Below are positions 7,445-58,722 of a stretch of 64,000 nt of DNA, one piece after another (positions within the stretch are counted from its first letter, which is position 1; each line of letters starts with the position of its first letter). The notes beneath the pieces are model-generated. The model saw nothing but the letters and a program-made list of their open reading frames with translations. It was not told the origin of the DNA and did not search any database. Location: contig OY762897.2 of assembly GCA_963666515.2 (NCBI GenBank), forward strand, positions 1,824,001 to 1,888,000, read 5' to 3'. Both the position numbers and the translations under genes were made by a program. The stretch comes from Candidatus Binatia bacterium (GTDB lineage: Bacteria > Desulfobacterota > Binatia > UBA9968 > JAJDTQ01).

Positions 7445-8749
7445 ATGCCGGACCCGATCACACTGACCATCGACTCCCTCACCCACGGCCCCTGGGGGCT
7501 CGGACGGCACCAGGGCAAGGTCGTCATGGCGCCCATGACGGCTCCGGGCGACCAAGTGGCCGCCGAAGTCGTGGATGAGCACAAGCGCTATTCGGTGGCG
7601 CGGGTGACGTCGCTGCTGCGTTCGTCGCCGACGCGCCGGGCCGCGCCATGCCCCTACGCCGGCGAGTGCGGCGGCTGCTCGTGGCAGCAGGTGGCGTATG
7701 ACGCGCAGCTTCAAGCCAAGCAGCGCAACGTGGCCGACGCGCTGACCCGCGTGGGCGGTCTCAGCGGTTTCGACATCCAACCCATCCTGCCCGCCTCCCC
7801 CGAGTTTCACTATCGCCGGCGCATCGGGCTTCACCTGGATGAGCGCGGCAGGCTCGGGTTTCGTCGCGCCTTCTCCCGGGAGCTGGTCGAGATCACCAAC
7901 TGCCTGATCGCGCACCCGGACGCGGACCTTGGTATCGGCGCGGCCGCCGAATGGGTCCGGCGCCTTGAAACCCCGATCTCCAGGGTCGAGATCGTGAGCG
8001 CCGACCGCGCCGGCGAAGTGATATTGTCGGCTTCGACCCGGCATGGATTCGCCAACGCCGACACGCGCACCTGTGAGCGGACCGTGGCCGGACCGGTGGC
8101 AGGCCTCGTGGTGGCAGGTCCCGGCTGGCGCCGCCATTGGGGCGAGACCACCCTCTCATTCGTGGTGGACGGAGACCTGCGGCTGCGTCACGACGCCGAC
8201 ACCTTCGGACAGGTCAATCCGGACGGCAACCGGAGGCTGGTGGACGAGCTGCTCTCGTGGGAGGCTTTCGGTGCACGGGACCGCGTTCTCGAACTCTACG
8301 CGGGCGCGGGCAACCTGACGCTTCCCATCGCCCGCCGGGTGCGACGGGTGACCGCGGTGGAAGCCAGCCGGAAGCTGGTCCGAAACGGCAGGCGGAATGC
8401 TGAGGACAACCGGCTCCACAACGTCCGGTGGCTCCGGCAGGATGCCGACCGGGCAGTGGACGAACTGGTCCGCCAAGGCCGGCGTTTCACCACGATCGTA
8501 CTGAACCCTCCGCGCCATGGGGCCAAAGAGGTGGTCGCGAGACTCCCCGCTCTCGGCGCCCGGCGGATCCTGTACGTTTCCTGCAATCCGGCGACTCTGG
8601 CGCGCGACCTTCGCGAGTTGGCGGCCCAGGGCTTCGCTCTGCGACGCGTTCGTCCGGTGGATCTCTTTCCCCAGACGTTTCACGTCGAAACTCTGGCCGA
8701 ACTGGTCCTCACCGAACCTTCCGCGCCCCCACCCGGATCACCGGAATAA
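7445..8749 (+). CDS. rlmD: 23S rRNA m5U methyltransferase (RlmD/TrmA family)
   Basis: N-terminal TRAM domain, CPYAGECGGC Fe-S motif, FGQVN, ELYAGAG, NPPR, YVSCNP, DLFPQTFHVE. Confidence 0.88.
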   Translation: MPDPITLTIDSLTHGPWGLGRHQGKVVMAPMTAPGDQVAAEVVDEHKRYSVARVTSLLRSSPTRRAAPCPYAGECGGCSWQQVAYDAQLQAKQRNVADALTRVGGLSGFDIQPILPASPEFHYRRRIGLHLDERGRLGFRRAFSRELVEITNCLIAHPDADLGIGAAAEWVRRLETPISRVEIVSADRAGEVILSASTRHGFANADTRTCERTVAGPVAGLVVAGPGWRRHWGETTLSFVVDGDLRLRHDADTFGQVNPDGNRRLVDELLSWEAFGARDRVLELYAGAGNLTLPIARRVRRVTAVEASRKLVRNGRRNAEDNRLHNVRWLRQDADRAVDELVRQGRRFTTIVLNPPRHGAKEVVARLPALGARRILYVSCNPATLARDLRELAAQGFALRRVRPVDLFPQTFHVETLAELVLTEPSAPPPGSPE

Positions 8750-8887
8750 GTATTTTTTCAATAGGTTATGATTCGACCTCTCGTACGCCACTTGAACCGC
8801 TACGGTGGCCGGAGAATACCGCGGCCGGACCACTTCAGGGTTGAGCTACGGACTCCAACTGGTGTAGACTGAATTTGGGAGGAAGAA

Positions 8888-9133
8888 ATGACCCAGCCGA
8901 AGAAAAGGGTAACTCCAAAGGTCACCATCATCGACAGCAACGGCGCCAGCCAGACCATCAACTACCTGCTCGAGGACCGGGACGAGCTGGAATGGCTGAT
9001 GGCGGTGGGACGCAACAAGAACGGTGACATCTTCTTTTACGACACCGGCGGCGACATTCTCCACGACCTCGGCGCCCTGGAGTACGTAAAAGAGCGAATC
9101 CTCAGGGATTACTTCGGCGAAATGGACGAATAG
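8888..9133 (+). CDS. Small hypothetical protein (81 aa)
   Basis: SD GGAGG before ATG, host-like codon usage, candidate promoter TTGAGC-18-TAGACT upstream. Confidence 0.7.
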   Translation: MTQPKKRVTPKVTIIDSNGASQTINYLLEDRDELEWLMAVGRNKNGDIFFYDTGGDILHDLGALEYVKERILRDYFGEMDE

Positions 9134-9161
9134 AGCCTCATACGGACGGCCGAGGCGCGAT

Positions 9162-10526
9162 TCAACGCCCCGGCTGCGCCGAACGCCTGGACAGCATCCA
9201 CAGGAACGCCCCAGCCGCCACGATCATGGCGGCGCTGAGATACTGCCCCCGGGACAATCCCCAGGCAAGCCCCAGGTGGGCGTCGGGCTCGCGGAAGAAC
9301 TCCACCGCGAACCGGACGGCGCCGTAGCCGCCGATGAACGCCCAGGTGACGACGCCGTGCGTCCTTACCCGCGTTCCCAGCCACGCCAGGACAGCCAGCA
9401 GCACCGCCCCTTCGAGAAAAGCCTCGTAGAGTTGGGAGGGATGGCGCGGCAAGGGTCCGGCACCCGGGAAGACCATGCCCCACGGCATCTCCGTCGGACG
9501 GCCGTATAGTTCCCCGTTGATGAAGTTGCCCAGACGGCCGAGGCCGAGACCCAGAGGCGCTGCCGCGAAGATGCAGTCGGCCGCAGGATAGAACGGGAGC
9601 CCCTGCCTGCGGACCCACAACCAGCCCGCCAGCATCGCCCCCAGCATGCCGCCGTGAAACGACATGCCGCCCTCCCAGAAGGCAAAGACCTGCAACGGAT
9701 AGGCCAGATAGTACGGAAGGTTGTAGAAGATCACGTAACCCAGCCGGCCGCCGAGCACGACGCCGACGGCGACGTAGCTGATGAGCTCCGTCAGTTGCTC
9801 GTTGCTGATCTTGAGGCCTCTCCTGCGAGCCAGCCACCGCGCCACGAAGAACCCGCCGACGAACCCGAACAGGTACATGAGGCCGTACCAGCGCACGGCC
9901 AGCGGCCCTACCTGGAACGCGATGGGATCGATGTCGGGAAAGGTCCACGTTGCCGCGGCGGCGCCGTCCACAGCAGCCGCGTGAACCGGCGTCCCGTTCC
10001 CCAGCAGTCCGGCCACCAACTCGCGCACGTCGTCCTTGTACCAGTCCTTGTATCCGACGGCCTTGGCGATGACCTCGCCCTCGCGCCCGATCAGCACGGT
10101 CACGGGCAAGCGCATCACGCCGTAGCTCTGGGCGATCTCCGCGCGGCCGTCCAGCAGCATCGGGTAGGTCAGCTTCTGTTCCGCGGCGAAGGCGCGCACC
10201 AGCTCCCCCGATTCCATGAAGTTGACGGCCACCACCTCCAGCCCCTTTCCGCGGAACTCCCGGTACAGCCGCTCCATGGACGGCATCTCCAGGCGGCACG
10301 GCGGACACCAGGTGGCCCAGAAATTCAGCACCACCAGCTTGCCGCGGAAGGACTTGAGGTCGACGGGGTTTCCGGCCGCATCCCGGGTGGCGAACGCGGG
10401 AGATTCCACGAAGCCTTCCTGGACGATGAAGCCGAGCTTTCTGAGGCGGTCGTCCTCCACTGCGCCCGAGGCCGCGGTGGGCAGGCAGAAGGCCGCGAAC
10501 AGGAAGGTAAACAACCAGTGCTTCAT
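9162..10526 (-). CDS. lgt: Fusion: signal peptide + TlpA/ResA thioredoxin + prolipoprotein diacylglyceryl transferase Lgt
   Basis: MKHWLFTFLFAAFCLPTAASG signal; LNFWATWCPPCRLEMP; Ala-rich linker; then DIDPIAF, RWYGLMY, GGRLGYVIFY, GGMSFHGG, GRLGNFINGELYGR, RHPSQLYE, RFAVEFFREPD, all in one frame with no stop. Confidence 0.9.
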   Translation of the reverse strand: MKHWLFTFLFAAFCLPTAASGAVEDDRLRKLGFIVQEGFVESPAFATRDAAGNPVDLKSFRGKLVVLNFWATWCPPCRLEMPSMERLYREFRGKGLEVVAVNFMESGELVRAFAAEQKLTYPMLLDGRAEIAQSYGVMRLPVTVLIGREGEVIAKAVGYKDWYKDDVRELVAGLLGNGTPVHAAAVDGAAAATWTFPDIDPIAFQVGPLAVRWYGLMYLFGFVGGFFVARWLARRRGLKISNEQLTELISYVAVGVVLGGRLGYVIFYNLPYYLAYPLQVFAFWEGGMSFHGGMLGAMLAGWLWVRRQGLPFYPAADCIFAAAPLGLGLGRLGNFINGELYGRPTEMPWGMVFPGAGPLPRHPSQLYEAFLEGAVLLAVLAWLGTRVRTHGVVTWAFIGGYGAVRFAVEFFREPDAHLGLAWGLSRGQYLSAAMIVAAGAFLWMLSRRSAQPGR

Positions 10527-10537
10527 GGGCCTGCGAG

Positions 10538-11581
10538 CTATGGGGCGGACCGGCCCGGTCCCAGAGCGAGCCCCCCTTCCCCGCCGGCGGCGTTGGCCGC
10601 GTCGTCCTCGGCAATCAGCCGGCGGGCGATCAGCACCAGGATCGGGACGATGTACATGTGCCCGCTGACCCACATGATGCCGCCGCCCAGGGCTTGGTCC
10701 TGGATCGGGGTCAGTTTCTCGATCATCGGGACCGCGGCATAGAACGGGTACAGCACGCGCTCGGGCAACGAGATGGCCATGCCGAGCAGCGTGTTCTGGA
10801 GCGTCGCGGCCACCAAGTAGACGATTCTCGCCCCCAGCGGGCGGGTGTGGCGGTAGAGCGGCGCCGCGTTGACGACGGGCCACCAGAAAAGCACCGCGGT
10901 GCCGAAGAACAGCCAGTGCTCCAGGTCATGGAGCCACCAGTATTCCAGCGCCGCCTGGTACAGGGCCGGGTGGTGCCAGGCCCAGAGATTCGCCACGTAG
11001 AGCGCCCAGGCCACCGGCATGAGCGTCAACGCGGACAACACGGACCGCAACAGGGCGCCCTCGCGAAACAACCCCGCGAAGCGCTCCCGGAGGCCGGCCG
11101 GGAGTCCCCAGACCACCGCCGCGAAGGGGTTGGCCAGGAGAATTGCCAGGGGTGCGATCATCAGCAGCAGGATGTGCTGCACCATGTGCATGCTGAGGTG
11201 CTCGGCGGCGAGACGGTCCACCGGCGAGACCAGGGCGGTGAAGAGCGCGGCGATGCCGGCGAGGTAGAGCGCCAGCCCGGACAGGGTGGCTGCGCCGTCC
11301 GCCTGCCGGCGCAGCCGCGACCAGCCTGTGAGATAGAGGGCCGCGGCCAGCAGCAGCACCAGCAGGATGTCCGCGCGGAAGTTCCAGGGGATCATCCCGA
11401 ACACCAGGACCAGCGCGTCGAACGGCAACGGCTCGTGCGCCGCGCCGCCGTGGGCATGGAGCGGTTGCGGCAGGGACGCCGCCGCCAGCGTCAGGCCGGC
11501 GGCCGTCCACGCAACCGGGCCCGGCGACCTCGACGCAGCCGACCCGGGATGACGCCAGGGCGTGTGCGCCCCGGGCCTCAT
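10538..11581 (-). CDS. ctaG: caa3-type cytochrome c oxidase assembly factor CtaG
   Basis: SPVDRLA...SMHMVQHILL, WAWHHPALY, HDLEHWLF, FWW, DQALGGGIMW motifs; start uncertain. Confidence 0.85.
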   Translation of the reverse strand: MRPGAHTPWRHPGSAASRSPGPVAWTAAGLTLAAASLPQPLHAHGGAAHEPLPFDALVLVFGMIPWNFRADILLVLLLAAALYLTGWSRLRRQADGAATLSGLALYLAGIAALFTALVSPVDRLAAEHLSMHMVQHILLLMIAPLAILLANPFAAVVWGLPAGLRERFAGLFREGALLRSVLSALTLMPVAWALYVANLWAWHHPALYQAALEYWWLHDLEHWLFFGTAVLFWWPVVNAAPLYRHTRPLGARIVYLVAATLQNTLLGMAISLPERVLYPFYAAVPMIEKLTPIQDQALGGGIMWVSGHMYIVPILVLIARRLIAEDDAANAAGGEGGLALGPGRSAP

Positions 11582-11943
11582 GATACCCTCCACAGGATGA
11601 ACCCCCAGGAAGGCATCAGCGCCACCGTGCCGAGGAACCAGTACACGGCGGCGGGCGCGGTCGCAGGCCGCGCCTTGAGCCATCTCACGCAGAATTCGGT
11701 GACGATCACGCCCAGGAGTCCGCCCGCGGTGGAGAGCGCGAGAAGGACCTTCATGCCCTTGTCCGGATTCTCCCCGGAGATGCCTCCCAGCAACACCATC
11801 AGGGCGATGATCCAGGCCGGCGCCGCGGCCGCCAGGCCCGCGAGCCAGTACCGCTCGGGCTTGCCGAGCCGGTCCCGGAAGCACGCCGATGCCAGCCCCC
11901 CGCCCACAACGCCGATTATTCCGACCCAGATGGATAGCGTCAC
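11578..11943 (-). CDS. Small 4-TM hypothetical membrane protein
   Basis: Four hydrophobic segments; stop overlaps the ctaG start (ATGA), suggesting translational coupling. Confidence 0.6.
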   Translation of the reverse strand: MTLSIWVGIIGVVGGGLASACFRDRLGKPERYWLAGLAAAAPAWIIALMVLLGGISGENPDKGMKVLLALSTAGGLLGVIVTEFCVRWLKARPATAPAAVYWFLGTVALMPSWGFILWRVS

Positions 11944-12107
11944 CGCCGTTGACCCTCTTCTCGCCGCGCGGGCGGGCTCGAAACCCGCCCTCCCTCATCG
12001 AAATCTAACAGCCCGGACCGTGACTTGAAAGCATGACGGCCGGGCCCCGGCCGCCGGGCCTTGCCGATCATGCCCCTCTCCGCGTAAGACAGGACGACGA
12101 GGCCGGC

Positions 12108-13361
12108 ATGCGCTTTTCCCTCACCTCTCTGTTCGACCTGGGCGAGCTTCCCGCGGATCTCCGACGCTCGCTCTGGCTCGTCTACGCCTCCAGCCTCATG
12201 GTGATCATGGGGACCAACCTGGTCCAGCAGGTGCTGCCGGCCATGACCGAACCCCTGGGCGTCACCGACGCGCGGATCGGGCTGGTGATCGCCGTCTACA
12301 CCGCGCCCGCCATCGTGCTGGCGCCGCTGCTGGGCGTCGCCGCCGACCGCTACGGCCGGAGGCCGCTGTTGATCGGCGGCCTGGTCCTGTTCGGCGCGGC
12401 CGGCGCCGCGGTAGCCGCCGCCCCGGACTTCCAATGGGTGCTGGTGTTGCGCGCCGTTCAGGGCATCGGCTTCAGCGCCGTCATCCCGCTCACCATCGTG
12501 CTCATCGGCGACCTGCTGGAGGGCCGGCGGGAGGTGTCCGGACAGGGGCTCAAGGTGTTCATCGACCGGGTGGGCGAACTCGTGCTGCCGCCCCTGGGCG
12601 GCGCCCTGGCCCTGATCGGATGGCGCTGGCCGTTCGTCACCTATGCCGTCGCCGTCCCGCTGGGGGTGCTGGTCGCCCTGTGGATGCCGGAGACCCGGGG
12701 AACGGCTGCGTTCTCCGCGGGCCAGTACTTCAAGGACCTGGCCCGGGTGGTGCGGAACCCGCGCCTGCTGCTGGCGTTCGCCGCCGGCTTCCTGCGCTTC
12801 TTCCTGGACTACGCGTTCTTCACCTACCTGCCGCTGTTCCTGGTCCGGAGCCACGGCCTGTCCACCGCGGGCGCGGGACTGCTGCGGTCCTTCCACGCCC
12901 TGGGCGCCATGGTCACGTCGAGCCAGGCGGGCCGTTTGGCAGGCGCCTGGGACAAGGGGAACCTGGTGCTGTGCGCCTTCCTCGCCAGCGGGCTCGCGCT
13001 CCTGGCCGTGGCGTTTGCGCCGGACACGGGGACCATGGTTCCGGTGCTGCTGCTTTACGGGATCGCCAACGGCGTGATCTCTCCGATGCAGAAGAGCCTG
13101 TTGACGCAGAACGCGCCCCTGGAGGTGCGGGCCGGCATCATTTCCCTGGACCGCCTGAGCCAGCAGATCGCCAAGACCGCCGGGGTCACCGGCATCGGCC
13201 TGCTGCTGGGGGTGGCGGAGATCTCCACCCTGTTCTGGATCATGGCCCTGCTGTCGTTCGTGAGCGTCGGCCTGATGGCCCCGCTGGCCTGGAGCGGGAG
13301 GGACCGGAGCGGCGGCCCTGACGCGGGGACGCCCGTTGAAGTGCGGCCGGACCCGTCGTAG
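12108..13361 (+). CDS. MFS transporter
   Basis: GVAADRYGRR motif A, LRAVQGIG, about 12 TMs. Confidence 0.85.
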   Translation: MRFSLTSLFDLGELPADLRRSLWLVYASSLMVIMGTNLVQQVLPAMTEPLGVTDARIGLVIAVYTAPAIVLAPLLGVAADRYGRRPLLIGGLVLFGAAGAAVAAAPDFQWVLVLRAVQGIGFSAVIPLTIVLIGDLLEGRREVSGQGLKVFIDRVGELVLPPLGGALALIGWRWPFVTYAVAVPLGVLVALWMPETRGTAAFSAGQYFKDLARVVRNPRLLLAFAAGFLRFFLDYAFFTYLPLFLVRSHGLSTAGAGLLRSFHALGAMVTSSQAGRLAGAWDKGNLVLCAFLASGLALLAVAFAPDTGTMVPVLLLYGIANGVISPMQKSLLTQNAPLEVRAGIISLDRLSQQIAKTAGVTGIGLLLGVAEISTLFWIMALLSFVSVGLMAPLAWSGRDRSGGPDAGTPVEVRPDPS

Positions 13362-13787: not shown

Positions 13788-13814
13788 GCGTCCTTCGACT
13801 CCGCTTCGCTACGC
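13788..13814. repeat. Palindromic repeat family C (GTCCTTCGAC...GCTACGC)
   Basis: Related to 25573-25604 (opposite orientation) and 48671-48711. Confidence 0.6.
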
Positions 13815-14897
13815 CTCCCGGTACTCGGCGCCGTCGATGGGAAGCTCGGTACCGAGCCCCTTCTCCCTCGCGCGCTGGTGGAGCAGCTCGCCGATGGCCT
13901 GGTCGCCCACGCCCCAGAAGGCGTTGTTCTTGTAGAAGCTGATCTGCTCCTCCGAGGTCCGGCCCGGCACCTGCCCGGCCAGCACCTCGCCCAGGTCCCA
14001 CACGTCGTCCCAGGTGATGACCCCTTGCTGGACCGGGTCCCACAACACCCCGGGCTCGTCCAGGATCTCCTGGCGCTTGGAGTTGCAGACGATGATGTCG
14101 CAGCGCCGGAGCGTCTCGTCGTCCACCTCGCGCCGCTTCTGCTGGATGAAGCCGCCGCGCATGAGGCCGATGTTGCTGGAGACGATGGAGCACAGGTGCA
14201 CGCCGGGCTCCAGCCAGTCGCCCTCGAAGGTGGGCACGTTGGAGTTGGTCACGGAAAGCAGGATGTCCACCCCCTGAACCGCCTCGCGGTTCGTCGTCAC
14301 CGGGCGCACTTCCATGTCCAGCAGCTCGGTCATCTTGGCGGCGAACTTCGTGCGGTTCTCAGGGTTCGGGCTGTAGACCTTGGCCTCCTCGACGCCGGGA
14401 ACCACCGCCTTGGTCGCGAGCAACTGGCACTCCGCCTGCGCCCGGGAGCCGAGTACCCCCACCACCTTGGAGGTCTGGCGCGCCAGGTGCTTGATGCCCA
14501 CCGCGGTGGAGCACGCCGTCTGCACGTTGACCACGTTGTTGGCGTCGGGCAGCTCCTTGACCCGCACCTCGCCCACGGTGATGCACTTCAACTCGGCGTT
14601 GTTGCCGTCGAACATCACCCGCACCGGGCGCCCCCGGGTCTGGTAGGTCTGGATGCCGTTGTCGTGGATCATCACGTGCTCGCAGTGGGTGAGTATCCCC
14701 GTGACCCCCGCGGAATTGGGCGCCCCCTGGTGCACCGTGACACGAGCGTTGGCGACCGAGTGCACGCGGCGCCTCAGCGCGCCCAGCTCACGGTTCCGGG
14801 CCCAGTCCAGGTAGCCCCGCTCCATGGCGTCCACCGCCTCCTTCATGGTGATGAGCCCGGCCATGTCCTCCGGGCCCAGCAAGAGTACCGATGCCAT
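13809..14897 (-). CDS. Ornithine cyclodeaminase / mu-crystallin family protein
   Basis: KHLARQTSKVVGVLGSRAQA, YSPNPENR, VTNSNVP, LEPGVH, LGEVLAGQVPGRTSEEQISFYK; SD GGAGG. Confidence 0.85.
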   Translation of the reverse strand: MASVLLLGPEDMAGLITMKEAVDAMERGYLDWARNRELGALRRRVHSVANARVTVHQGAPNSAGVTGILTHCEHVMIHDNGIQTYQTRGRPVRVMFDGNNAELKCITVGEVRVKELPDANNVVNVQTACSTAVGIKHLARQTSKVVGVLGSRAQAECQLLATKAVVPGVEEAKVYSPNPENRTKFAAKMTELLDMEVRPVTTNREAVQGVDILLSVTNSNVPTFEGDWLEPGVHLCSIVSSNIGLMRGGFIQQKRREVDDETLRRCDIIVCNSKRQEILDEPGVLWDPVQQGVITWDDVWDLGEVLAGQVPGRTSEEQISFYKNNAFWGVGDQAIGELLHQRAREKGLGTELPIDGAEYREA

Positions 14898-14935
14898 TGA
14901 CAACCTCCCTGGCGTTCGTTCGTATCCCTGCGCCA

Positions 14936-16132
14936 TCAGTTGAGCGGCGCAACTCTCCGTTTCAATAGCAGATAAAGCCTTCCCGTGCTTTTCATGTACC
15001 CCGCCTGCGCTCCCGCCTCGTCCCCCGTCCCGAAATAGAGATCCACCCGCGCCGAACCCCGGATGGCGGCGCCGGTGTCCTGGTTGAGGACGAAGCGGCC
15101 GAACGGCCGCAAGCCCGCCAGCTCGCCCTGCTCGCCCACCACCGGCGTCCGGGTCTCGACGAACAGCAGCGCGCCCTTGGGGTAGACGCGGTGATCGGTG
15201 GCGGCGGAGCGTCCAGCCGTGAGCGGCACCCCAAGGCTCCCCAACGGCCCCTTCTCTCCCAGCCGGAAGAAGATGTAGCGCTCGTTGCGCGCGAACAGCG
15301 CCTCGCGCTCGCCCGGAAACTCCGCGAGCCAGGCGCGGATCCGCTGCATCGACATGGTCTCCCGGTCGAGCTTGCCCTGGTCGATGAGGACCTTGCCGAT
15401 GCTGGTGTAGCGCCGGCCGTTGTGGGCCGCGTAGTTCAGCGGCACCTCCCGCCCGTCGGTCATCCGCAGCAGTCCCGATCCCTGGACGTGGAGAAAGAAA
15501 CGGTCCACCGGATCCCGCAACCACGCGATCTCGTAACCCCTGCCCCTGAGGCTGTCCAGGACGTCGATGTCACGGCGGGAATACCCGGCGGCCTTCCTGG
15601 CCCGGCCGCGCAACTCGTCGGGCTCGCGATACACGGGATAGCGGTAGTCCGCGGTTTCCACCGGGCTGGCGTCGATCACCGGCTGGTAGTAGCCGGTGAA
15701 CAGCACGTCGTCCAACGCCGCGCTCCTCGGCGCGGGAAAGAAATCGAACCGCTCCGCCACCCGACGCGGCCAGCTCCCGTCCGGCTCCGGCGGCTCGTCC
15801 AGGAGCGCCAGGAACTCGGTGAGGGAGGCCCGGACGTCTGCCGCCGTCACCCTTCGGGGCCACTTGCCCAGGAGCCGGCCGCCGGGAACGGCGTCGAGGA
15901 ACCTCAGGCTCTCCGCCACCGCCGCCCGCAACGACTTGATCTCCAGGTCGTCACGAACCTCGCCGGGCGGTTCGGGATGTGTGTACGGCGCGGACGGCGC
16001 CGGCGGCTGCACCGGCTGGCAAGCGCCGAGCAGCGCCACAGCAAACGCTGCGACCAGCACGCGCCACCGCGGCCGGCCACGCGCGTGCCCGCGTGGAACG
16101 GCGGTCGTAAGTGAACGGAAACGGACCGGCAT
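14936..16132 (-). CDS. mltA: Membrane-bound lytic murein transglycosylase A (lipoprotein)
   Basis: LLGAC lipobox, FTGYYQP, FFLHVQGSG, NERYIFF, QDTGAAIRG..RVDLYFGTG (3D domain). Confidence 0.9.
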   Translation of the reverse strand: MPVRFRSLTTAVPRGHARGRPRWRVLVAAFAVALLGACQPVQPPAPSAPYTHPEPPGEVRDDLEIKSLRAAVAESLRFLDAVPGGRLLGKWPRRVTAADVRASLTEFLALLDEPPEPDGSWPRRVAERFDFFPAPRSAALDDVLFTGYYQPVIDASPVETADYRYPVYREPDELRGRARKAAGYSRRDIDVLDSLRGRGYEIAWLRDPVDRFFLHVQGSGLLRMTDGREVPLNYAAHNGRRYTSIGKVLIDQGKLDRETMSMQRIRAWLAEFPGEREALFARNERYIFFRLGEKGPLGSLGVPLTAGRSAATDHRVYPKGALLFVETRTPVVGEQGELAGLRPFGRFVLNQDTGAAIRGSARVDLYFGTGDEAGAQAGYMKSTGRLYLLLKRRVAPLN

Positions 16133-16180: not shown

Positions 16181-17269
16181 CTAATCCCTGATGTCCTGGG
16201 TGAACCACTCGGTGGGCAGCTCGCGGCCCATCCCCTTCTCTTTGGCCATCTGGTAAACCCGGCCGGCGCAGGCCGCGAACTGGAGCCCCTGGGTGCCGGC
16301 GTTGATGAAGAAGGTGGTCTGGTCGGGGCTCGTGCGGCCCGGCTTGCGGCCGGCCTTCACGTCCATGAAATAGTGGAAGTAGTCGCCGGAATAGGCGTCC
16401 TGCGAGGGGTTCGGGATGCGCGCGATCTCCTCGGGCTGTCCGGCCACGTAGCCCACGTTCCCGTGGAGCCGCACCATGCCCTCGTCCATGGTCAGCACGG
16501 TGTTCCGCCCGAGCATGACGGAGACGTCGCAGGCCTCCACCGCGCGAGGGCCGATCTCGCAGGAACGCACGCAGGTGATGTGGGCGCCGGGCTTGAGCCA
16601 CTCGGGGTTGTCGAACACCACGCGGGTGGAGTCCGTGCAGGCGGAGACGATGTCGGCGCCGCGCACCACGTCCTCGGGAGAGTCCACCGCCGTCACCTTG
16701 AGGCCCAGGGTCTCGCTCATCTCCGCGGCGTAGGCCTCGCGGTTGGCTTTGGTGGGGCTGTACGCCCTTACTTCCTCGATGTTCCGCACCTCGTTGAACG
16801 CCATGAGATAGGTCCGCGCCATGCCCCCGGAGCCGAACATGCCCACCACCGAGGCATCCTCCCGCGCCAGCTCCTTGGCGCCCAGCCCGGCGCAGCCCCC
16901 TACCCGCATGTGCTGGAGCACGCCGTCGTTGATGATGGCCAGGGGCTCGCCGTTGGCGACGCTGAACACCATGATGAGCCCGCAGTAGTTGCCGGGCTCC
17001 ATGCAGTACTTCTCCTCGGTGCCGCCCTCGGGCCAGTGGACCACGTCCGACTTCATGCGGATGGCGAACGTGCCGATGGTGCGGCTGGCCCCTTCCATGG
17101 TGCCCCAGCGGTAGTAGCCGTCCGGACGCCCGCAGGGAAACCATACGTCGAGCCGCGGCCGGTACACCGCGTCGTTGCGGGCGAGATCCTCATAGCCCGT
17201 CTCCAGCGCGTCGAGACAGGCCTTCATGTCCATCAGCTCTTCCACTTCCTGGTTGTTGATGAGCAGCAT
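16181..17269 (-). CDS. Ornithine cyclodeaminase / mu-crystallin family protein
   Basis: LQHMRVG, GMFGSGGMA, YSPTKANRE, LKPGAHI, GLQFAA; close paralog of 57625-58722. Confidence 0.85.
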   Translation of the reverse strand: MLLINNQEVEELMDMKACLDALETGYEDLARNDAVYRPRLDVWFPCGRPDGYYRWGTMEGASRTIGTFAIRMKSDVVHWPEGGTEEKYCMEPGNYCGLIMVFSVANGEPLAIINDGVLQHMRVGGCAGLGAKELAREDASVVGMFGSGGMARTYLMAFNEVRNIEEVRAYSPTKANREAYAAEMSETLGLKVTAVDSPEDVVRGADIVSACTDSTRVVFDNPEWLKPGAHITCVRSCEIGPRAVEACDVSVMLGRNTVLTMDEGMVRLHGNVGYVAGQPEEIARIPNPSQDAYSGDYFHYFMDVKAGRKPGRTSPDQTTFFINAGTQGLQFAACAGRVYQMAKEKGMGRELPTEWFTQDIRD

Positions 17270-17374
17270 GCGTGTTCCTTTCAGTCGATGAATCAGGGCG
17301 GGCCTCAAGTTCCTATACGATGAAGCCCTCTTTGAAAAGCGCCGCCGGGCCTTTGCGGAGCGCCCGGCGGGGGG

Positions 17375-17803
17375 TCAAACGTCGGGTGTCACGTCGAACC
17401 CGAGCGCAATGCCGTTTCCGCGGACACGGTCGTCCAGCGACAGCAGGGAAAGCTCCGCCACGAGGCTGCGGGCCAGCAACGCCGTCGACAGGTGAATGGC
17501 GTCGAGGGACCGTACGGGTTCCCGAGGAAACGCCCGCCGCGAGCGCGCCACGACTTCGCTGTCGATGGAAAGCACCACCCAATGGTCCGCGGCCGCATCC
17601 AGGAGCGCCCGCCGTCTGGCTGCCTCGGCCTCGCCATCGTCTCCCAGAGCCGCCGCCCGCAAGAGGACGCGATCGCATTCGATCAACGTCAGTTCAGACG
17701 TGAGAACGAGGTCCGCGGCGGCGATTTCCCGTCTGGTCCGTCCGCCGCGGTCCTCTCCGAGCAACCACGCCAGGACGGCGCTGGACTCGGCATAGAGGTT
17801 CAC
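17375..17803 (-). CDS. vapC: VapC PIN-domain toxin
   Basis: LYAESSAVL, SELTLIE, RSLDAIHLSTA, SLDDR; GTG start overlaps the antitoxin stop. Confidence 0.8.
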   Translation of the reverse strand: MNLYAESSAVLAWLLGEDRGGRTRREIAAADLVLTSELTLIECDRVLLRAAALGDDGEAEAARRRALLDAAADHWVVLSIDSEVVARSRRAFPREPVRSLDAIHLSTALLARSLVAELSLLSLDDRVRGNGIALGFDVTPDV

Positions 17804-18090
17804 TTCTCTCCCCGGGTCTCGTCCAGCAGCCGCTTGCCCGAACCCGGCGGCAGGAACGGCTTCACGGATGGATACAGGACATCCCGGTTGGGAGCACCGA
17901 TGCGCGCCCGGCCCGCCCGCGCATGGCGCACGAGACCCGGGTAGGCGGCGGTTCCCGGTACGTTCACCGGCTGGCGCAACTCGGCCACAACCTCACCCCT
18001 ATCCGTGACCAGAATCTCCTCGCCGCCGCGAACCATCTGGAGATGCTCGCTCAAGCGGTTCTTCAGTTCGCGAATTCCAACCGTTCTCAT
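17800..18090 (-). CDS. Phd/YefM family antitoxin
   Basis: MRTVGIRELKNRLSEHL..V..GEEILVTDRGEVVAEL; GTAGC repeats immediately upstream (likely operator). Confidence 0.88.
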   Translation of the reverse strand: MRTVGIRELKNRLSEHLQMVRGGEEILVTDRGEVVAELRQPVNVPGTAAYPGLVRHARAGRARIGAPNRDVLYPSVKPFLPPGSGKRLLDETRGEK

Positions 18091-28901: not shown

Positions 28902-29294
28902 CTATGGTACACGCACCAACGCGACATCGTACGCTTCAAGCGTTGCGTCCGCGGTAACCAGCGTCAAACCCTCGATCCGGGCCTGGGCGACCAGGACGCG
29001 GTCAAACGGGTCGCGATGCAGCAGCGGCAAGGCCGCCACGGCGAGCGCATGCGCATGCGTGATGGCGAGACCCTCAAAACCGCTGAGCCGCATGCGCTGG
29101 GGCACGTAAATGGCCGGCGGCTCGGGAAGCGGCAACTTGCCGACGGCATACTTGATGGAGATTTCCCACGCGCTTGCCGCGGACAGATACCTCTCGGTCT
29201 CAGGATCGGCCAGCGTTTCGAGCAGGTCGACGTCGAATCGGCTGCGTTCCGTCTGAAGCCAGAGCCAACAGTGGGTATCGAGGAGAAACTTCAT
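28902..29294 (-). CDS. vapC: VapC PIN-domain toxin
   Basis: LLDTHCWLW, SAASAWEISIK, HRDPFDRVLVAQA, LVTAD. Confidence 0.92.
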   Translation of the reverse strand: MKFLLDTHCWLWLQTERSRFDVDLLETLADPETERYLSAASAWEISIKYAVGKLPLPEPPAIYVPQRMRLSGFEGLAITHAHALAVAALPLLHRDPFDRVLVAQARIEGLTLVTADATLEAYDVALVRVP

Positions 29295-29353
29295 CCGTGC
29301 CAGCCGCTACGGAGTCGCAGGTCGTATTCTCCGCATCAGTGTGAGACAGGACA

Positions 29354-29587
29354 CTAGTCGCGACCCTCGAATGCGCGCAGCAGATCCTCGTCGAGAGGCT
29401 CATCGAAGTCGTCGGGGACCACGAAACGTCCCTCATCTACGCCGAACACGGGGCTCTTCCGCTCAATGGGAACCAGACGGGCCACGGGACGCCCCGAGCG
29501 GGTGATGACGACATCTTCCCCCTCGACAACCTCTCGCAGCAGCCGGGACAGGTGGGTTTTGGCCTCGTGGACAGTCACTTGGTGCAT
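29354..29587 (-). CDS. Phd/YefM family antitoxin
   Basis: VTVHEAKTHLSRLL.EV..GEDVVITRSGRPVARLVP...PDDFDEPL. Confidence 0.9.
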   Translation of the reverse strand: MHQVTVHEAKTHLSRLLREVVEGEDVVITRSGRPVARLVPIERKSPVFGVDEGRFVVPDDFDEPLDEDLLRAFEGRD

Positions 29588-29622
29588 AGTCACAAAATAG
29601 ACTAACCATATGACTAAATCAA
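29588..29622 (-). promoter_or_regulatory. Leaderless TA promoter with TTAGTC operator repeats
   Basis: TTGATT-17-TATTTT-6nt-ATG; TTAGTC direct repeat and AGTC/GACT inverted repeat overlap the promoter. Confidence 0.6.
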
Positions 29623-29687
29623 ACGAACTCCGCGTAGGGCGATTTCGCATTTGTTGCAGGCGTCCGCGAACGTGGCATACTATGGCC

Positions 29688-30025
29688 ATGCGCTTTTTCA
29701 ACACCACCGGGCCGGTCGTTCCCGCCGACCACTACTGCATCCGGCCCCTGGAGCGCCTGAATCTCGACGAAGTCCTCACCCTCGTCCGCGACAAGCGCTA
29801 CTTCGTGCTGCACGCGCCGCGGCAGACCGGCAAGACGTCCGCCCTGCTGGCGTTGCGGGAGTTGCTGAACGGTGGCTCCGAAGGCGGCTACCGTTGCGTG
29901 TACGCCAACGTCGAGGGCGCCCAGGCGATGCGCGAGGACGTGGCCGAGGCCATGCGGAGGGCGGTCTGGAGGTGGAGAAGCTGCTGGCGGCTTTCCAGAC
30001 GTTTTTCCGGGAGCACTCGGAGCAC
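29688..30025 (+). pseudogene. Internally deleted, truncated copy of the AAA-ATPase gene at 31849
   Basis: 29646-29956 is near-identical to 31807-32117; it then jumps via a GCG microhomology to sequence matching 32986-33054, which shifts the frame. Confidence 0.9.
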
Positions 30026-57548: not shown

Positions 57549-57624
57549 CTTGCCGTCGGCGGGGAATCCTGCACATACTCGGCAACGTATCGTTGCCGAG
57601 TACAATCGCCCCCAAGGAGGAGCC

Positions 57625-58722
57625 ATGCTGTTTCTGACCAATGACCACATCCAGGAAGTCCTGGACATGAAGACCTGCCTCGACGCCATGGAGGACGCCT
57701 ACCGCGACCTCTCGAAGAACGAGGCGGCGTACCGGCCGAGGATCGACTTCTACGTGCCCAGGGAACCCCACTACTACCGCTGGGGGACCATGGAGGGGGC
57801 CACCCGGTCGCTGGGCTACATGGCCATCCGCATGAAGTCGGACATGCTCGTGTGGGAAAAGGACGGCGAGTTCGAGACCGAGGACAAGTACTGCATCGAG
57901 CCCGGCACCTACTGCGGCCTGATCTTCCTGCTGAGCGTGCGCAACGGCGAGCCGCTGGCGCTGATGAACGACGGCTACCTCCAGCACATGCGGGTGGGCG
58001 CCTGCGCCGGGCTCGGGGTCAAGTACCTCTCCCGCCGGGACTCCAAGGTGCTGGGCATGCTGGGCTCCGGCGGCATGGCGCGGACCTACACCCAGGCCAT
58101 CCACGAGGTGCGTGACATCGAGCTGCTGCGCGTGTTCAGCCCCACCAAGGCCAACCGCGAAGCCTTCGCCGCGGAGATGCGCGAGCAACTGGGGCTCACG
58201 GTCGAGACCTGCGACGACGCCGAGACCGCCTGCCGCGGCGCCGACATCGTGGCGCTGGCCACGGACTCCCTTGTCGAGGTGATGAAGCCCGAGTGGGTGG
58301 AGCCCGGCATGCACATCACCAACGTCCGCTCCAACGAGGCCGGGCCGGAGATCCTGGCCAAGTGCGACCTGCAGGCGCGGCTGGGGGCCTCCACCCTGGT
58401 GCTGGACAATCCTCCGGCGGGAACCATCCACGGCTCCGACGGCATGTTCGCCTACATCGCCGGCACGGATGAGGAGCGGAGCAAGATCCCGCCCTCGCCC
58501 ATCCGCGAGATCGACAACAAGAACATCGGCACCATCCCCGACCTGATGGCCGGCAGGTGGCCCGGGAGGACCAGCGATCAACAGGTGACGTTCCTCAACA
58601 ACCAGGGCACCCAGGGCCTCCAGTTCGCCGCGGTGGGGGGCACCGTCTACGAACTGGCAAAGGCCAAGGGTCTGGGACACCCGCTGCCGCGGGAATGGTT
58701 CCTGCAGGACATCCGCGACTAG
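57625..58722 (+). CDS. Ornithine cyclodeaminase / mu-crystallin family protein
   Basis: Close paralog of 16181-17269, with identical C-terminal QDIRD; SD AGGAGG. Confidence 0.85.
   Translation: MLFLTNDHIQEVLDMKTCLDAMEDAYRDLSKNEAAYRPRIDFYVPREPHYYRWGTMEGATRSLGYMAIRMKSDMLVWEKDGEFETEDKYCIEPGTYCGLIFLLSVRNGEPLALMNDGYLQHMRVGACAGLGVKYLSRRDSKVLGMLGSGGMARTYTQAIHEVRDIELLRVFSPTKANREAFAAEMREQLGLTVETCDDAETACRGADIVALATDSLVEVMKPEWVEPGMHITNVRSNEAGPEILAKCDLQARLGASTLVLDNPPAGTIHGSDGMFAYIAGTDEERSKIPPSPIREIDNKNIGTIPDLMAGRWPGRTSDQQVTFLNNQGTQGLQFAAVGGTVYELAKAKGLGHPLPREWFLQDIRD

What the first reader, a model, noticed from the sequence alone, without database searches (positions are those of the whole stretch)
9162..11943. 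TlpA-thioredoxin::Lgt fusion in an operon with caa3-type CtaG: candidate lipoprotein/copper-oxidase maturation module
Seen: one uninterrupted ORF encodes a signal peptide, a WCPPC TlpA/ResA thioredoxin, an Ala-rich linker and a complete Lgt. All Lgt catalytic motifs are present and the Lgt part has no Met of its own. The gene starts 11 nt after ctaG, which is ATGA-coupled to a small 4-TM ORF. Established: the E. coli Lgt N-terminus faces the periplasm, so the fusion is topologically coherent. TlpA reduces CoxB/ScoI cysteines in Bradyrhizobium, CtaG assembles Bacillus caa3 oxidase, and Bacillus subunit II CtaC is an Lgt-modified lipoprotein. Inference: the fused thioredoxin may keep the lipobox Cys thiol (the nucleophile Lgt needs) and/or the CuA cysteines reduced during lipidation, forming a coupled reduce-then-lipidate machine. 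I do not know of this fusion being characterised.
Basis: partly seen in the sequence, partly recalled or inferred. Interest (0 to 1): 0.8.

Follow-up and report, generated by a model that had tools for sequence, protein, structure and literature searches.

The report
Thioredoxin-Lgt fusion made by anchor deletion
In this uncultured Binatia bacterium, a deletion welded a periplasmic thiol-reducing enzyme onto the enzyme that attaches lipid to lipoproteins, and the same weld arose several times in related species, hinting that the two steps work side by side.

Summary
Window 9162-10526 (-) is one 454-aa ORF: signal peptide, TlpA/ResA-type thioredoxin (WCPPC), an Ala-rich linker and a complete Lgt. 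It lies 11 nt after a Caa3_CtaG-family gene, which is ATGA-coupled to a small 4-TM ORF.

The organism is a Candidatus Binatia bacterium. The order 4TM-ctaG-tlpA-lgt holds in 16 of 16 related loci, but only 8 of 16 are fused.

In the 8 split relatives, TlpA ends in its own transmembrane anchor and basic tail, followed by a stop, a short spacer and a GTG/ATG start for lgt. The fused forms lack this ~110-190 nt. Trees place the window among split relatives, and an AU test rejects a single fused clade (p 7e-7). This implies at least three independent deletions.

The lost anchor and Lgt TM1 appear to share the same orientation (inferred), so the fusion is best read as an anchor swap. It fixes a periplasmic thiol oxidoreductase next to Lgt.

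Some CtaG homologues are fused to Sco. The Bacillus caa3 biogenesis gene set includes CtaG, ResA and Lgt. Both facts support a role in copper-oxidase maturation.

The proposed reduction of the lipobox cysteine is untested. No oxidase, sco or ccdA gene lies in the window. I rate this a new variant of a known kind.

The parts
11578..11943 (-). Small membrane ORF (121 aa, GTG start, about 4 hydrophobic segments). It is the first gene of the operon, and its stop overlaps the ctaG start (ATGA).
   Evidence: No Pfam or NCBIfam family reached E 0.01; the best hit was E 0.013 and far below its cut-off. It is present at 64-92% identity in 15 of 15 related loci. Cys21 is kept in 12 of 16 and Cys84 in 15 of 16.
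10538..11581 (-). Caa3_CtaG-family polytopic membrane protein (347 aa). It has no Cys and carries invariant His/Met-rich motifs.
   Evidence: PF09678 E 7e-55. TIGR02737 scores only 48.5 bits against a cut-off of 279. Homologues at 57-62% identity are fused to an N-terminal SCO1/SenC domain.
9162..10526 (-). The whole fusion ORF (454 aa plus stop): signal peptide, thioredoxin domain, linker and Lgt.
10461..10526 (-). N-terminal hydrophobic signal sequence (residues 1-22). It is probably a cleaved Sec signal ending in ...SGA.
   Evidence: Hydrophobic segment at residues 4-24. Cys14 is present in 13 of 16 orthologues, but the residue before it is L or F, so this is not a canonical lipobox (lipobox consensus).
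10038..10400 (-). TlpA/ResA-type thioredoxin-fold domain (residues 43-163). The active-site WCPPC lies at residues 73-77, with the two Cys codons spanning nt 10296-10307.
   Evidence: Pfam. Nearest solved structures are ResA 4nmu (E 3.6e-26) and TlpA 1jfu (E 1e-20). WCPPC is present in 16 of 16 loci. C74, C77, E80 and P82 are invariant in 56 of 56 aligned sequences.
9948..10001 (-). Ala-rich linker (residues 176-193). It ends in the junction codon ACG (T193, 9948-9950), which sits where split orthologues have the lgt start codon.
   Evidence: Linker length and sequence differ between fused lineages.
9165..9947 (-). Complete Lgt (residues 194-454), with the stop at 9162-9164.
   Evidence: TIGR00544 is above its cut-off. 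5azb matches at E 7e-65 over chain residues 8-288. Catalytic residues are invariant.

Best explanation
The ORF is a genuine bifunctional protein. A periplasmic, membrane-tethered TlpA/ResA-type thiol:disulfide oxidoreductase is joined to the N terminus of the canonical prolipoprotein diacylglyceryl transferase.

How it arose. In the ancestral arrangement, tlpA and lgt were neighbouring genes of a four-gene operon (4TM-ctaG-tlpA-lgt). TlpA had a signal peptide, the thioredoxin domain, a linker, and its own C-terminal transmembrane helix followed by an Arg-rich tail. A deletion of about 190 nt removed that helix, the tail, the stop codon, the spacer with its ribosome-binding site, and the lgt start codon. 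The lost helix and Lgt TM1 both run from periplasm to cytoplasm and are both followed by basic residues. Topology is therefore preserved, and Lgt simply becomes the anchor.

What it does (inferred). The operon supplies steps needed to mature exported, cysteine-bearing, copper-binding, lipid-anchored respiratory proteins.
- The CtaG-like protein handles copper.
- The TlpA domain keeps client cysteines reduced. Likely clients are CuA-site or Sco-type proteins. Because of the tether, cysteines of proteins being handled by Lgt may also be clients.
- Lgt lipidates.

The fusion adds no new chemistry. It hard-wires the reductase next to the lipidation step.

Shown: the architecture, the direction and recurrence of the deletion, the synteny, and the conservation of the active sites.
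Inferred: periplasmic location, reductant rather than oxidant, the clients, and any benefit of proximity.
For: Architecture and intact active sites.

Synteny: MFS | 4TM-ctaG-tlpA-lgt | orf81 | RumA-like in 16 of 16 loci.

Split forms: the 8 split loci (L005-7, L009-12, L031) have a TlpA C-terminal hydrophobic helix plus an R-rich tail, a stop, 20-35 nt, then GTG or ATG for lgt.

The anchor is ancestral:
- It is alignable between the two split clades.
- It is also present in more distant TlpA homologues: P0122-P0124 (60-70% identity) and P0129 (39% over the alignment; 46% in the local BLAST alignment) (sequences).

Direction of change: the fused locus L008 still reads the first half of the anchor, the former ribosome-binding region and the old GTG (as Val) in frame.

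Independent origins:
- On a 1538-column tree of flanking genes, the window is sister to split L005-7 (100/100). L008 is sister to the split clade L009-12/L031 (91/96). L001-4/L014 form their own fused clade (100/100).
- The AU test rejects one fused clade: p 7e-7, lnL difference 96.
- TlpA-only and Lgt-only trees agree: the window groups with L005-7 at 90/92 and 100/98. Allele transfer therefore does not explain the pattern.

Topology: the Lgt N terminus lies in the periplasmic head and the active site faces the periplasm (Mao 2016 passages).

Copper link:
- PF09678 membership.
- Invariant His/Met motifs and no Cys in the CtaG-like protein.
- Sco::CtaG fusions P0440, P0457 and P0461.
- In Hederstedt 2022 (passages), the B. 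subtilis caa3 biogenesis set includes Caa3_CtaG, ResA and Lgt, and TlpA reduces the CuA cysteines and Sco.
- All Binatota genomes are reported to encode alternative complex III and complex IV (Murphy 2021 passage).
Against: - No oxidase subunit, sco, ccdA/dsbD, lspA or lnt lies in the 64-kb window or within the 7-kb flanks of the loci. The client proteins and the electron donor are unknown.
- The CtaG-like protein falls far below the NCBIfam CtaG equivalog cut-off.
- The thioredoxin domain falls below both the ResA and TlpA NCBIfam cut-offs.
- Sequence alone does not tell a reductant from an oxidant.
- Three or more independent fusions could mean selection for proximity rather than neutrality. 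My reading may therefore underrate a direct TlpA-Lgt partnership.
- On the unrooted tree, plain parsimony prefers two changes (fused ancestor, two fissions). I override this on the evidence of anchor homology, not on the count.
- The AU group was defined after the tree had been seen.
- The window's TlpA domain sits on a long end branch, 0.17 against a median of 0.047. This could mean relaxed constraint after the fusion.
Confidence: 0.5

Rival explanations
1. Dedicated reduce-then-lipidate machine. The thioredoxin domain acts directly on Lgt's substrates. It keeps or restores the free thiol of the lipobox cysteine (or resolves mixed disulfides) just before Lgt transfers diacylglycerol. The fusions were selected because they improve this hand-over.
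For: - Lgt needs the lipobox thiol, and its active site faces the periplasm, where the tethered domain sits (Mao 2016 passages).
- Fusion arose at least three times and persisted through speciation. The L001 clade has 5 species-level genomes. The window lineage includes P0002 and P0003.
- A second, unrelated architecture joins a degenerate N-terminal half of Lgt to a C-terminal WCPPC TlpA domain. It occurs in 6 clusters, including Meiothermus hypogaeus and Calidithermus chliarophilus.
- In 5 Dormibacterota-type loci, lgt is followed on the same strand by a CPYC DsbA-like protein, VKOR and a CtaG-like gene.
Against: - Half of the relatives do without the fusion and use a free-diffusing anchored TlpA.
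- The fusion is mutationally easy and topologically neutral, so recurrence does not require selection.
- tlpA is as tightly linked to ctaG (11 nt) as to lgt.
- Outside Binatia, 0 of 50 other lgt loci have a TlpA-type gene directly upstream. The two Dehalococcoidales hits are cytoplasmic trxA-trxB.
- Of the best 150 representatives at 50% identity, I examined 21 long ones. None of the 21 combines Redoxin with a full LGT domain.
- I found no paper reporting a need for a reductase in lipoprotein lipidation (searches, listings only).
Confidence: 0.22
2. Specialised second Lgt. This lgt is a paralogue dedicated to a few oxidase or copper-protein substrates, and a housekeeping lgt sits elsewhere in the genome.
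For: It lies in an operon with ctaG and tlpA rather than in a housekeeping context. Some genomes do carry two lgt genes, for example two loci from one Dormibacterota MAG and a tandem pair in L035.
Against: - It passes the lgt equivalog cut-off.
- It is 54-59% identical to the single annotated Lgt of Geobacter, Desulfuromonas and Nitrospira.
- All tested catalytic residues are invariant.
- Only one locus per Binatia genome came back. The scan patterns were specific to this sequence, so a diverged copy would have been missed.
Confidence: 0.1
3. Artefact. The single ORF results from misassembly, a sequencing frameshift or a chimeric contig.
For: Several related genomes are long-read assemblies, in which indel errors are common (record titles).
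Against: - The difference from split relatives is an in-frame loss of about 110-190 nt, not a 1-nt indel.
- The same junction type is seen in short-read assemblies (L004, L013) and in eight independent protein clusters.
- Third-position divergence across fused genes is normal, and both domains stay intact.
Confidence: 0.02

Closest known systems
E. coli Lgt (PDB 5azb/5azc), phosphatidylglycerol:prolipoprotein diacylglyceryl transferase
   Same: Residues 194-454 align over almost the whole enzyme (E 7e-65). The residues equivalent to Y26, G27, H103, R143, E151, Y235 and R239 are conserved.
   Different: It carries a 193-residue N-terminal extension (signal peptide, thioredoxin domain and linker) attached where the E. 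coli N terminus enters the periplasmic head. The only Lgt extension I saw described in the papers I read is the C-terminal one of M. tuberculosis (passage).
Bacillus ResA and Bradyrhizobium TlpA (PDB 4nmu, 1st9, 1jfu, 4txo)
   Same: The same thioredoxin-fold family. It has a CxxC, a conserved Glu three residues after the second Cys, and a conserved Pro at the cis-Pro position. The role of those two residues is recalled, not tested. It is extracytoplasmic and membrane-tethered.
   Different: The active site is WCPPC. Scores are below the NCBIfam ResA cut-off (117.8 against 170) and the TlpA cut-off (89.7 against 230). It is anchored by a C-terminal helix in split relatives, or by Lgt here, rather than by an N-terminal anchor.
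Bacillus subtilis Caa3_CtaG and Corynebacterium CtiP
   Same: The upstream gene belongs to PF09678. Relatives are fused to Sco. This echoes the B. halodurans ctaG-sco adjacency and the CtiP fusion described by Hederstedt 2022 (passages).
   Different: It is not next to any cta/cox genes. It is far below the equivalog cut-off. It has an N-terminal His-rich periplasmic stretch.
Natural fusions of a polytopic membrane redox enzyme with its periplasmic thioredoxin-like partner: M. tuberculosis DipZ (PDB 2hyx, matched) and cyanobacterial VKOR-Trx (recalled)
   Same: A thioredoxin-fold domain is tethered to a membrane enzyme that is a separate protein in other species.
   Different: In those cases the membrane part passes electrons to the thioredoxin domain. 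Lgt has no known redox function.

Membership tests
Lgt (prolipoprotein diacylglyceryl transferase, TIGR00544 / PF01790) | Full-length match above the curated cut-off | tested here: met
   TIGR00544 scores 234.9 bits against 118.9. PF01790 covers model positions 1-239 of 240.
Lgt | Residues shown to be essential in E. coli (Y26, G27, H103, R143, E151) and pocket residues Y235 and R239 | tested here: met
   Mapped through the 5azb alignment. The residue list comes from Mao 2016 passages. All are invariant in 62 of 62 sequences.
Lgt | Diacylglyceryl transfer to the lipobox cysteine; sole or essential copy in the genome | not testable with these tools
TlpA/ResA-type extracytoplasmic thiol:disulfide oxidoreductase | Thioredoxin fold with a CxxC active site | tested here: met
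   AhpC-TSA, Redoxin and Thioredoxin_8 all score above their cut-offs. WCPPC is present in 16 of 16 loci.
TlpA/ResA-type extracytoplasmic thiol:disulfide oxidoreductase | Equivalog- or subfamily-level identity with ResA or TlpA | tested here: not met
   NF002854 ResA scores 117.8 against 170. NF047696 TlpA scores 89.7 against 230. It is a family member, not an orthologue of either.
TlpA/ResA-type extracytoplasmic thiol:disulfide oxidoreductase | Exported and membrane-tethered; acts as a reductant fed by CcdA/DsbD | tested here: inconclusive
   A signal-like N terminus and a C-terminal anchor with a basic tail in split relatives fit export. No ccdA/dsbD lies in the window. The redox direction was not tested.
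Caa3_CtaG (cytochrome c oxidase assembly factor) | Pfam family membership | tested here: met
   PF09678 scores 186.4 bits against 27.7.
Caa3_CtaG (cytochrome c oxidase assembly factor) | Equivalog with Bacillus CtaG; linkage to cta/cox genes | tested here: not met
   TIGR02737 scores 48.5 against 279.35. None of the 59 window ORFs scanned belongs to a COX or Sco family.
Bacterial lipoprotein (is the fusion itself a lipoprotein?) | Lipobox [LVI][ASTVI][GAS]C at the end of the signal peptide | tested here: not met
   Cys14 is preceded by F (window) or L. The Cys is absent in 3 of 16 orthologues. The consensus comes from the passage.

The most novel reading that the evidence does not exclude
Lipoprotein lipidation has an unrecognised redox partner. 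Three observations point the same way: the recurrent TlpA::Lgt fusions in Binatia; the half-Lgt::TlpA proteins of Meiothermus, Calidithermus and others; and the lgt-dsbA-like-VKOR-ctaG clusters of Dormibacterota. On this reading, many bacteria station an extracytoplasmic thiol:disulfide oxidoreductase at Lgt to control the redox state of the lipobox cysteine (and of the copper-ligand cysteines of lipoprotein clients) before lipidation. The Lgt N-terminal half may serve as the module that presents the signal peptide and its cysteine.
Probability: 0.2. Interest if true: 0.8.

Novelty: new variant of a known kind. Interest (0 to 1): 0.5.

Why it matters
Lgt needs a free thiol on a cysteine that emerges into an oxidising compartment. 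How that thiol is protected has had little attention.

This finding offers a natural experiment. The same oxidoreductase is either welded to Lgt or anchored on its own right beside it, and the weld was made at least three times. Fused and split orthologue pairs could be compared directly in an E. coli lgt depletion strain.

The operon also links a poorly understood copper-handling protein (Caa3_CtaG family) with thiol redox and lipidation in an uncultured, globally distributed phylum.

If the fusion is only an anchor swap, it is still a clean, datable example of how neighbouring membrane-protein genes with matching topology fuse.

Tried and rejected
Rejected ideas:
1. The small 4-TM protein as a CcdA-like thiol relay. 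Cys21 is kept in only 12 of 16 and Cys84 in 15 of 16, so there is no conserved Cys pair. No family was found even at E 10.
2. The fusion as itself a lipoprotein. It has no canonical lipobox.
3. Allele transfer of a single fused gene between lineages, to explain the shared xCG-TGG junction of the window, L001, L003 and L013. Both single-domain trees match the flanking-gene tree.
4. Representatives P0248, P0252, P0253, P0330 and P0359 (several matched stretches) as Lgt with an inserted thioredoxin. They are tandem thioredoxin proteins without LGT.

Scans that gave nothing usable:
5. The promoter/terminator scan of 8700-12300. It found one promoter-like site that lies inside the small ORF's start, and terminator-like sites at the chance rate.
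6. Literature. Searches (listings), plus passages in PMC12419801 and PMC13251419, gave no description of a thioredoxin-Lgt fusion. These searches cover open-access text only.

Tools that could not be run:
7. The protein-atlas search.
8. Complex prediction for the thioredoxin domain against Lgt (nothing was folded).
9. Structure prediction.
10. The listing of cluster members.

As a result there is no structural model, no docking test, and no source names or accessions for the fused proteins.

11. An align_proteins call with wrong coordinates failed. The alignment was made by script instead.
Full report
OBSERVATION

On the minus strand, three ORFs follow one another.
- A 121-aa membrane ORF at 11578-11943.
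- A 347-aa ORF at 10538-11581. Its ATG overlaps the first ORF's TGA (ATGA).
- A 454-aa ORF at 9162-10526. It begins 11 nt after the second ORF's TAG.

The 454-aa protein (P0001) has these parts.
- A hydrophobic N terminus.
- A Pfam AhpC-TSA/Redoxin domain at residues 43-163, with WCPPC at 73-77.
- An Ala-rich linker.
- A full LGT domain at residues 201-443.

It passes the NCBIfam lgt equivalog cut-off, 234.9 bits against 118.9. It aligns with E. coli Lgt (5azb) over nearly the whole enzyme at E 7e-65.

Mao et al. 2016 found Y26, G27, H103, R143 and E151 to be required, and Y235 and R239 to line the pocket (passages read). These map to Y214, G215, H291, R331, E339, Y401 and R405. All seven are invariant in 62 of 62 aligned Lgt sequences.

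The middle ORF belongs to Pfam Caa3_CtaG (E 7e-55). It reaches only 48.5 bits against a cut-off of 279 for the Bacillus-type CtaG equivalog. The small ORF has no family.

WHOSE GENOME, AND HOW CONSERVED

The closest genomic loci are from Candidatus Binatia MAGs. A few carry other taxon labels but fall inside the same clade.

In the window and all 15 related loci, the gene order is the same: MFS transporter (opposite strand) | 4TM-ctaG-tlpA-lgt | an 81-aa ORF (opposite strand) | RumA-like methyltransferase.

The fusion itself is not conserved.
- The window and 7 loci (L001-L004, L008, L013, L014) have one ORF.
- Eight loci (L005-L007, L009-L012, L031) have two.
- In the protein collection, 8 clusters at 70-98% identity are fused. 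Stand-alone Lgt proteins of about 262 aa are up to 90% identical to the window's Lgt part.

WHAT DISTINGUISHES SPLIT FROM FUSED

In every split locus, TlpA continues past the linker into four further elements.
- A hydrophobic helix of about 20-25 residues.
- An Arg-rich tail, then a stop codon.
- A 20-35 nt spacer holding a GGAG-like site.
- A GTG or ATG start for lgt.

The fused genes lack this segment.
- The window, L001, L003 and L013 have lost all of it, about 190 nt. A codon for T, S or P sits directly before the Trp that is residue 2 of stand-alone Lgt. In the window this is ACG at 9948-9950.
- L008 has lost only about 112 nt. It still reads the first half of the helix, the former ribosome-binding region and the old GTG (as Val) in frame. 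This relic shows the direction of change: split to fused, by deletion.

More distant TlpA homologues also end in a hydrophobic helix and basic tail: P0122-P0124 (60-70% identity) and P0129 (39% over the alignment; 46% in the local alignment) (sequences). The anchored form is therefore the older one.

HOW OFTEN IT HAPPENED

I built a maximum-likelihood tree from the six flanking proteins, leaving TlpA and Lgt out (1538 columns).
- The window is sister to the split loci L005-L007 (support 100/100).
- Fused L008 is sister to the split clade L009-L012/L031 (91/96).
- L001-L004/L014 form their own fused clade (100/100).
- L013 sits on a long branch.

An AU test rejects a tree in which all fused genomes form one group (lnL difference 96, p 7e-7). 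One caveat applies: the group was defined after the tree had been seen.

Trees of the TlpA domain alone and of Lgt alone give the same placements. Transfer of one fused allele between lineages therefore does not explain the pattern.

Plain parsimony on the unrooted tree needs only two changes if the ancestor was fused. That would require the same anchor-encoding segment to be gained twice, so I reject it on the homology evidence above. The best reading is at least three independent deletions: the window lineage (with P0002 and P0003), the L008 lineage, and the L001 clade. L013 may be a fourth.

WHY THE FUSION IS EASY

E. coli Lgt has seven membrane helices. Its N terminus forms a strand of the periplasmic head, and its active site faces the periplasm (Mao 2016 passages).

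The lost TlpA helix ran from periplasm to cytoplasm and was followed by arginines. Lgt TM1 does the same (sequence; hydrophobic segments). Any in-frame deletion that spans from the linker to the lgt start therefore keeps both parts in their correct compartments. Lgt replaces the anchor.

The 18-residue linker in the window (longer in L008-type proteins) should let the thioredoxin domain reach the periplasmic face of Lgt. This last point is inference. The structure and complex predictions that could have tested it were not available.

WHAT THE OPERON IS LIKELY FOR

- The thioredoxin domain is nearest to ResA (4nmu, E 3.6e-26) and TlpA (1jfu, E 1e-20) among solved structures. WCPPC is kept in 16 of 16 loci. 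It is below the curated cut-offs for both named subfamilies.
- The CtaG-like protein has no cysteine. It carries invariant His/Met-rich motifs, which fit metal handling.
- Three homologues at 57-62% identity carry an N-terminal SCO1/SenC copper-chaperone domain fused to the CtaG-like membrane domain: P0440, P0457 and P0461. One source names P0461 as Candidatus Binatia.
- Hederstedt 2022 (passages read) lists twelve proteins known to act in B. subtilis cytochrome caa3 biogenesis. The list includes Caa3_CtaG, ResA, CcdA, Sco, LspA and Lgt. The review states that subunit II and Sco are lipoproteins there. It also states that Bradyrhizobium TlpA keeps the CuA cysteines of subunit II reduced and reduces Sco.
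- Murphy et al. 2021 (passage read) report that all Binatota genomes encode alternative complex III and complex IV.

The three known functions in this operon are thus three of the functions needed to mature a copper-containing, lipid-anchored oxidase subunit.

Against it, no oxidase, sco, ccdA/dsbD, lspA or second lgt gene lies in the 64-kb window.

DOES THE THIOREDOXIN SERVE LGT ITSELF?

For:
- The fusion is recurrent and persistent.
- A different architecture exists in 6 clusters, including Meiothermus hypogaeus and Calidithermus chliarophilus. A degenerate N-terminal half of Lgt (Pfam positions 1-122, lacking the Tyr and His equivalents) is followed by a WCPPC TlpA domain.
- In 5 of 16 Dormibacterota-type loci (L053, L054, L058, L060, L062), lgt is followed on the same strand by a CPYC DsbA-like DUF929 protein, VKOR and a CtaG-like gene. 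VKOR and ctaG overlap by 4 nt in the three loci whose ORFs were read (L053, L054, L058). In L058 all four genes are contiguous.

Against:
- Half the Binatia relatives are split.
- tlpA is as tightly coupled to ctaG as to lgt.
- None of the 50 non-Binatia lgt loci has a TlpA-type gene directly upstream.
- Of the best 150 representatives at 50% identity I examined 21 long ones, and none of the 21 joins Redoxin to a full LGT domain.
- The fusion can be explained as neutral.

I therefore rank the anchor-swap-within-a-maturation-operon reading first (0.5). The direct reduce-then-lipidate reading comes second (0.22).

COMPARISON AND NOVELTY

Each part is a member of a known family (see the membership table). 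The combination of a thioredoxin joined to a complete Lgt was not found in the papers I searched (open-access text only).

In the collections searched it appears only in this Binatia group. The search could see only the top-scoring proteins, and no domain-architecture database was available. It is a new variant of a known kind.

Its main value is as a natural fused/split comparison. It makes testable the question of how the lipobox thiol, or the copper-ligand thiols of lipoprotein clients, are kept reduced.

LEFT OPEN

- Whether this is the only lgt in the genome.
- The identity of the clients and of the electron donor.
- The redox direction of the domain.
- Read-level confirmation of the junction.
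- Any structural model.
- Source names and accessions of the fused proteins (one search was unavailable).

Noticed in passing
window 8888-9133 (+): An 81-aa ORF convergent with lgt is almost invariant. It shows 0-2 amino-acid differences in the 13 loci whose DNA was compared. The 8-28 nucleotide differences are nearly all at third codon positions. Its neighbours are 64-93% identical. It has no Pfam or NCBIfam family. It appears to be a very strongly constrained small protein of unknown function.
   Followed up: partly
proteins P0198, P0201, P0184, P0194, P0197, P0231: Proteins of 265-293 aa in which a degenerate N-terminal half of Lgt (Pfam LGT positions about 1-122, lacking the Tyr and His equivalents) is followed by a WCPPC TlpA domain. 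Sources name Meiothermus hypogaeus and Calidithermus chliarophilus, and annotate the proteins only as TlpA family.
   Followed up: partly
L058 6989-9957 (+); also L053, L054, L060, L062: In Dormibacterota-type loci, lgt is followed on the same strand by a DUF929 protein with a CPYC motif, VKOR and a Caa3_CtaG-family gene. VKOR and ctaG overlap by 4 nt in L053, L054 and L058. This is a second, non-homologous pairing of lgt, a thiol:disulfide system and a CtaG-like gene.
   Followed up: partly
proteins P0440, P0457, P0461: Homologues of the window's CtaG-like protein (57-62% identity) carry an N-terminal SCO1/SenC copper-chaperone domain with a CxxxC motif. This is a Sco::CtaG fusion. One is named as Candidatus Binatia.
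   Followed up: partly
proteins P0237, P0263, P0267, P0347; P0265, P0299; P0259: Other Lgt fusions occur among representatives: Lgt with a C-terminal Cu-oxidase_4 (PF02578) domain, TauE/SafE with a C-terminal Lgt, and ankyrin repeats with a C-terminal Lgt.
   Followed up: no
window 10038-10400 (-), TlpA domain: The window's TlpA domain sits on an end branch of 0.17 substitutions per site, against a median of 0.047 for the 16 orthologues. Its Lgt part has 0.057. This may reflect faster evolution of the thioredoxin domain after the fusion.
   Followed up: no
window 17375-18090 (-) and 28902-29707 (-): Two PIN toxin / Phd-YefM antitoxin gene pairs.
   Followed up: no
window 13809-15524 (-), 16181-17308 (-), 57550-58722 (+): Three ornithine cyclodeaminase/mu-crystallin family paralogues lie in one 64-kb window, among amidohydrolase, peptidase M20 and MFS genes.
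   Followed up: no
L045 2106-5338 (+), L047 3987-7208 (+): In Dehalococcoidales, lgt directly follows plsX, cytoplasmic trxA and trxB on the same strand in L045. L047 has ORFs of the same sizes, order and strand, but only L045 was scanned with Pfam.
   Followed up: no
L004, L005, L007, L013 (titles against the tree): Records labelled Syntrophobacterales, Thermodesulfobacteriota or Deltaproteobacteria fall inside the Binatia clade with full synteny. Their taxon labels look outdated or wrong.
   Followed up: no
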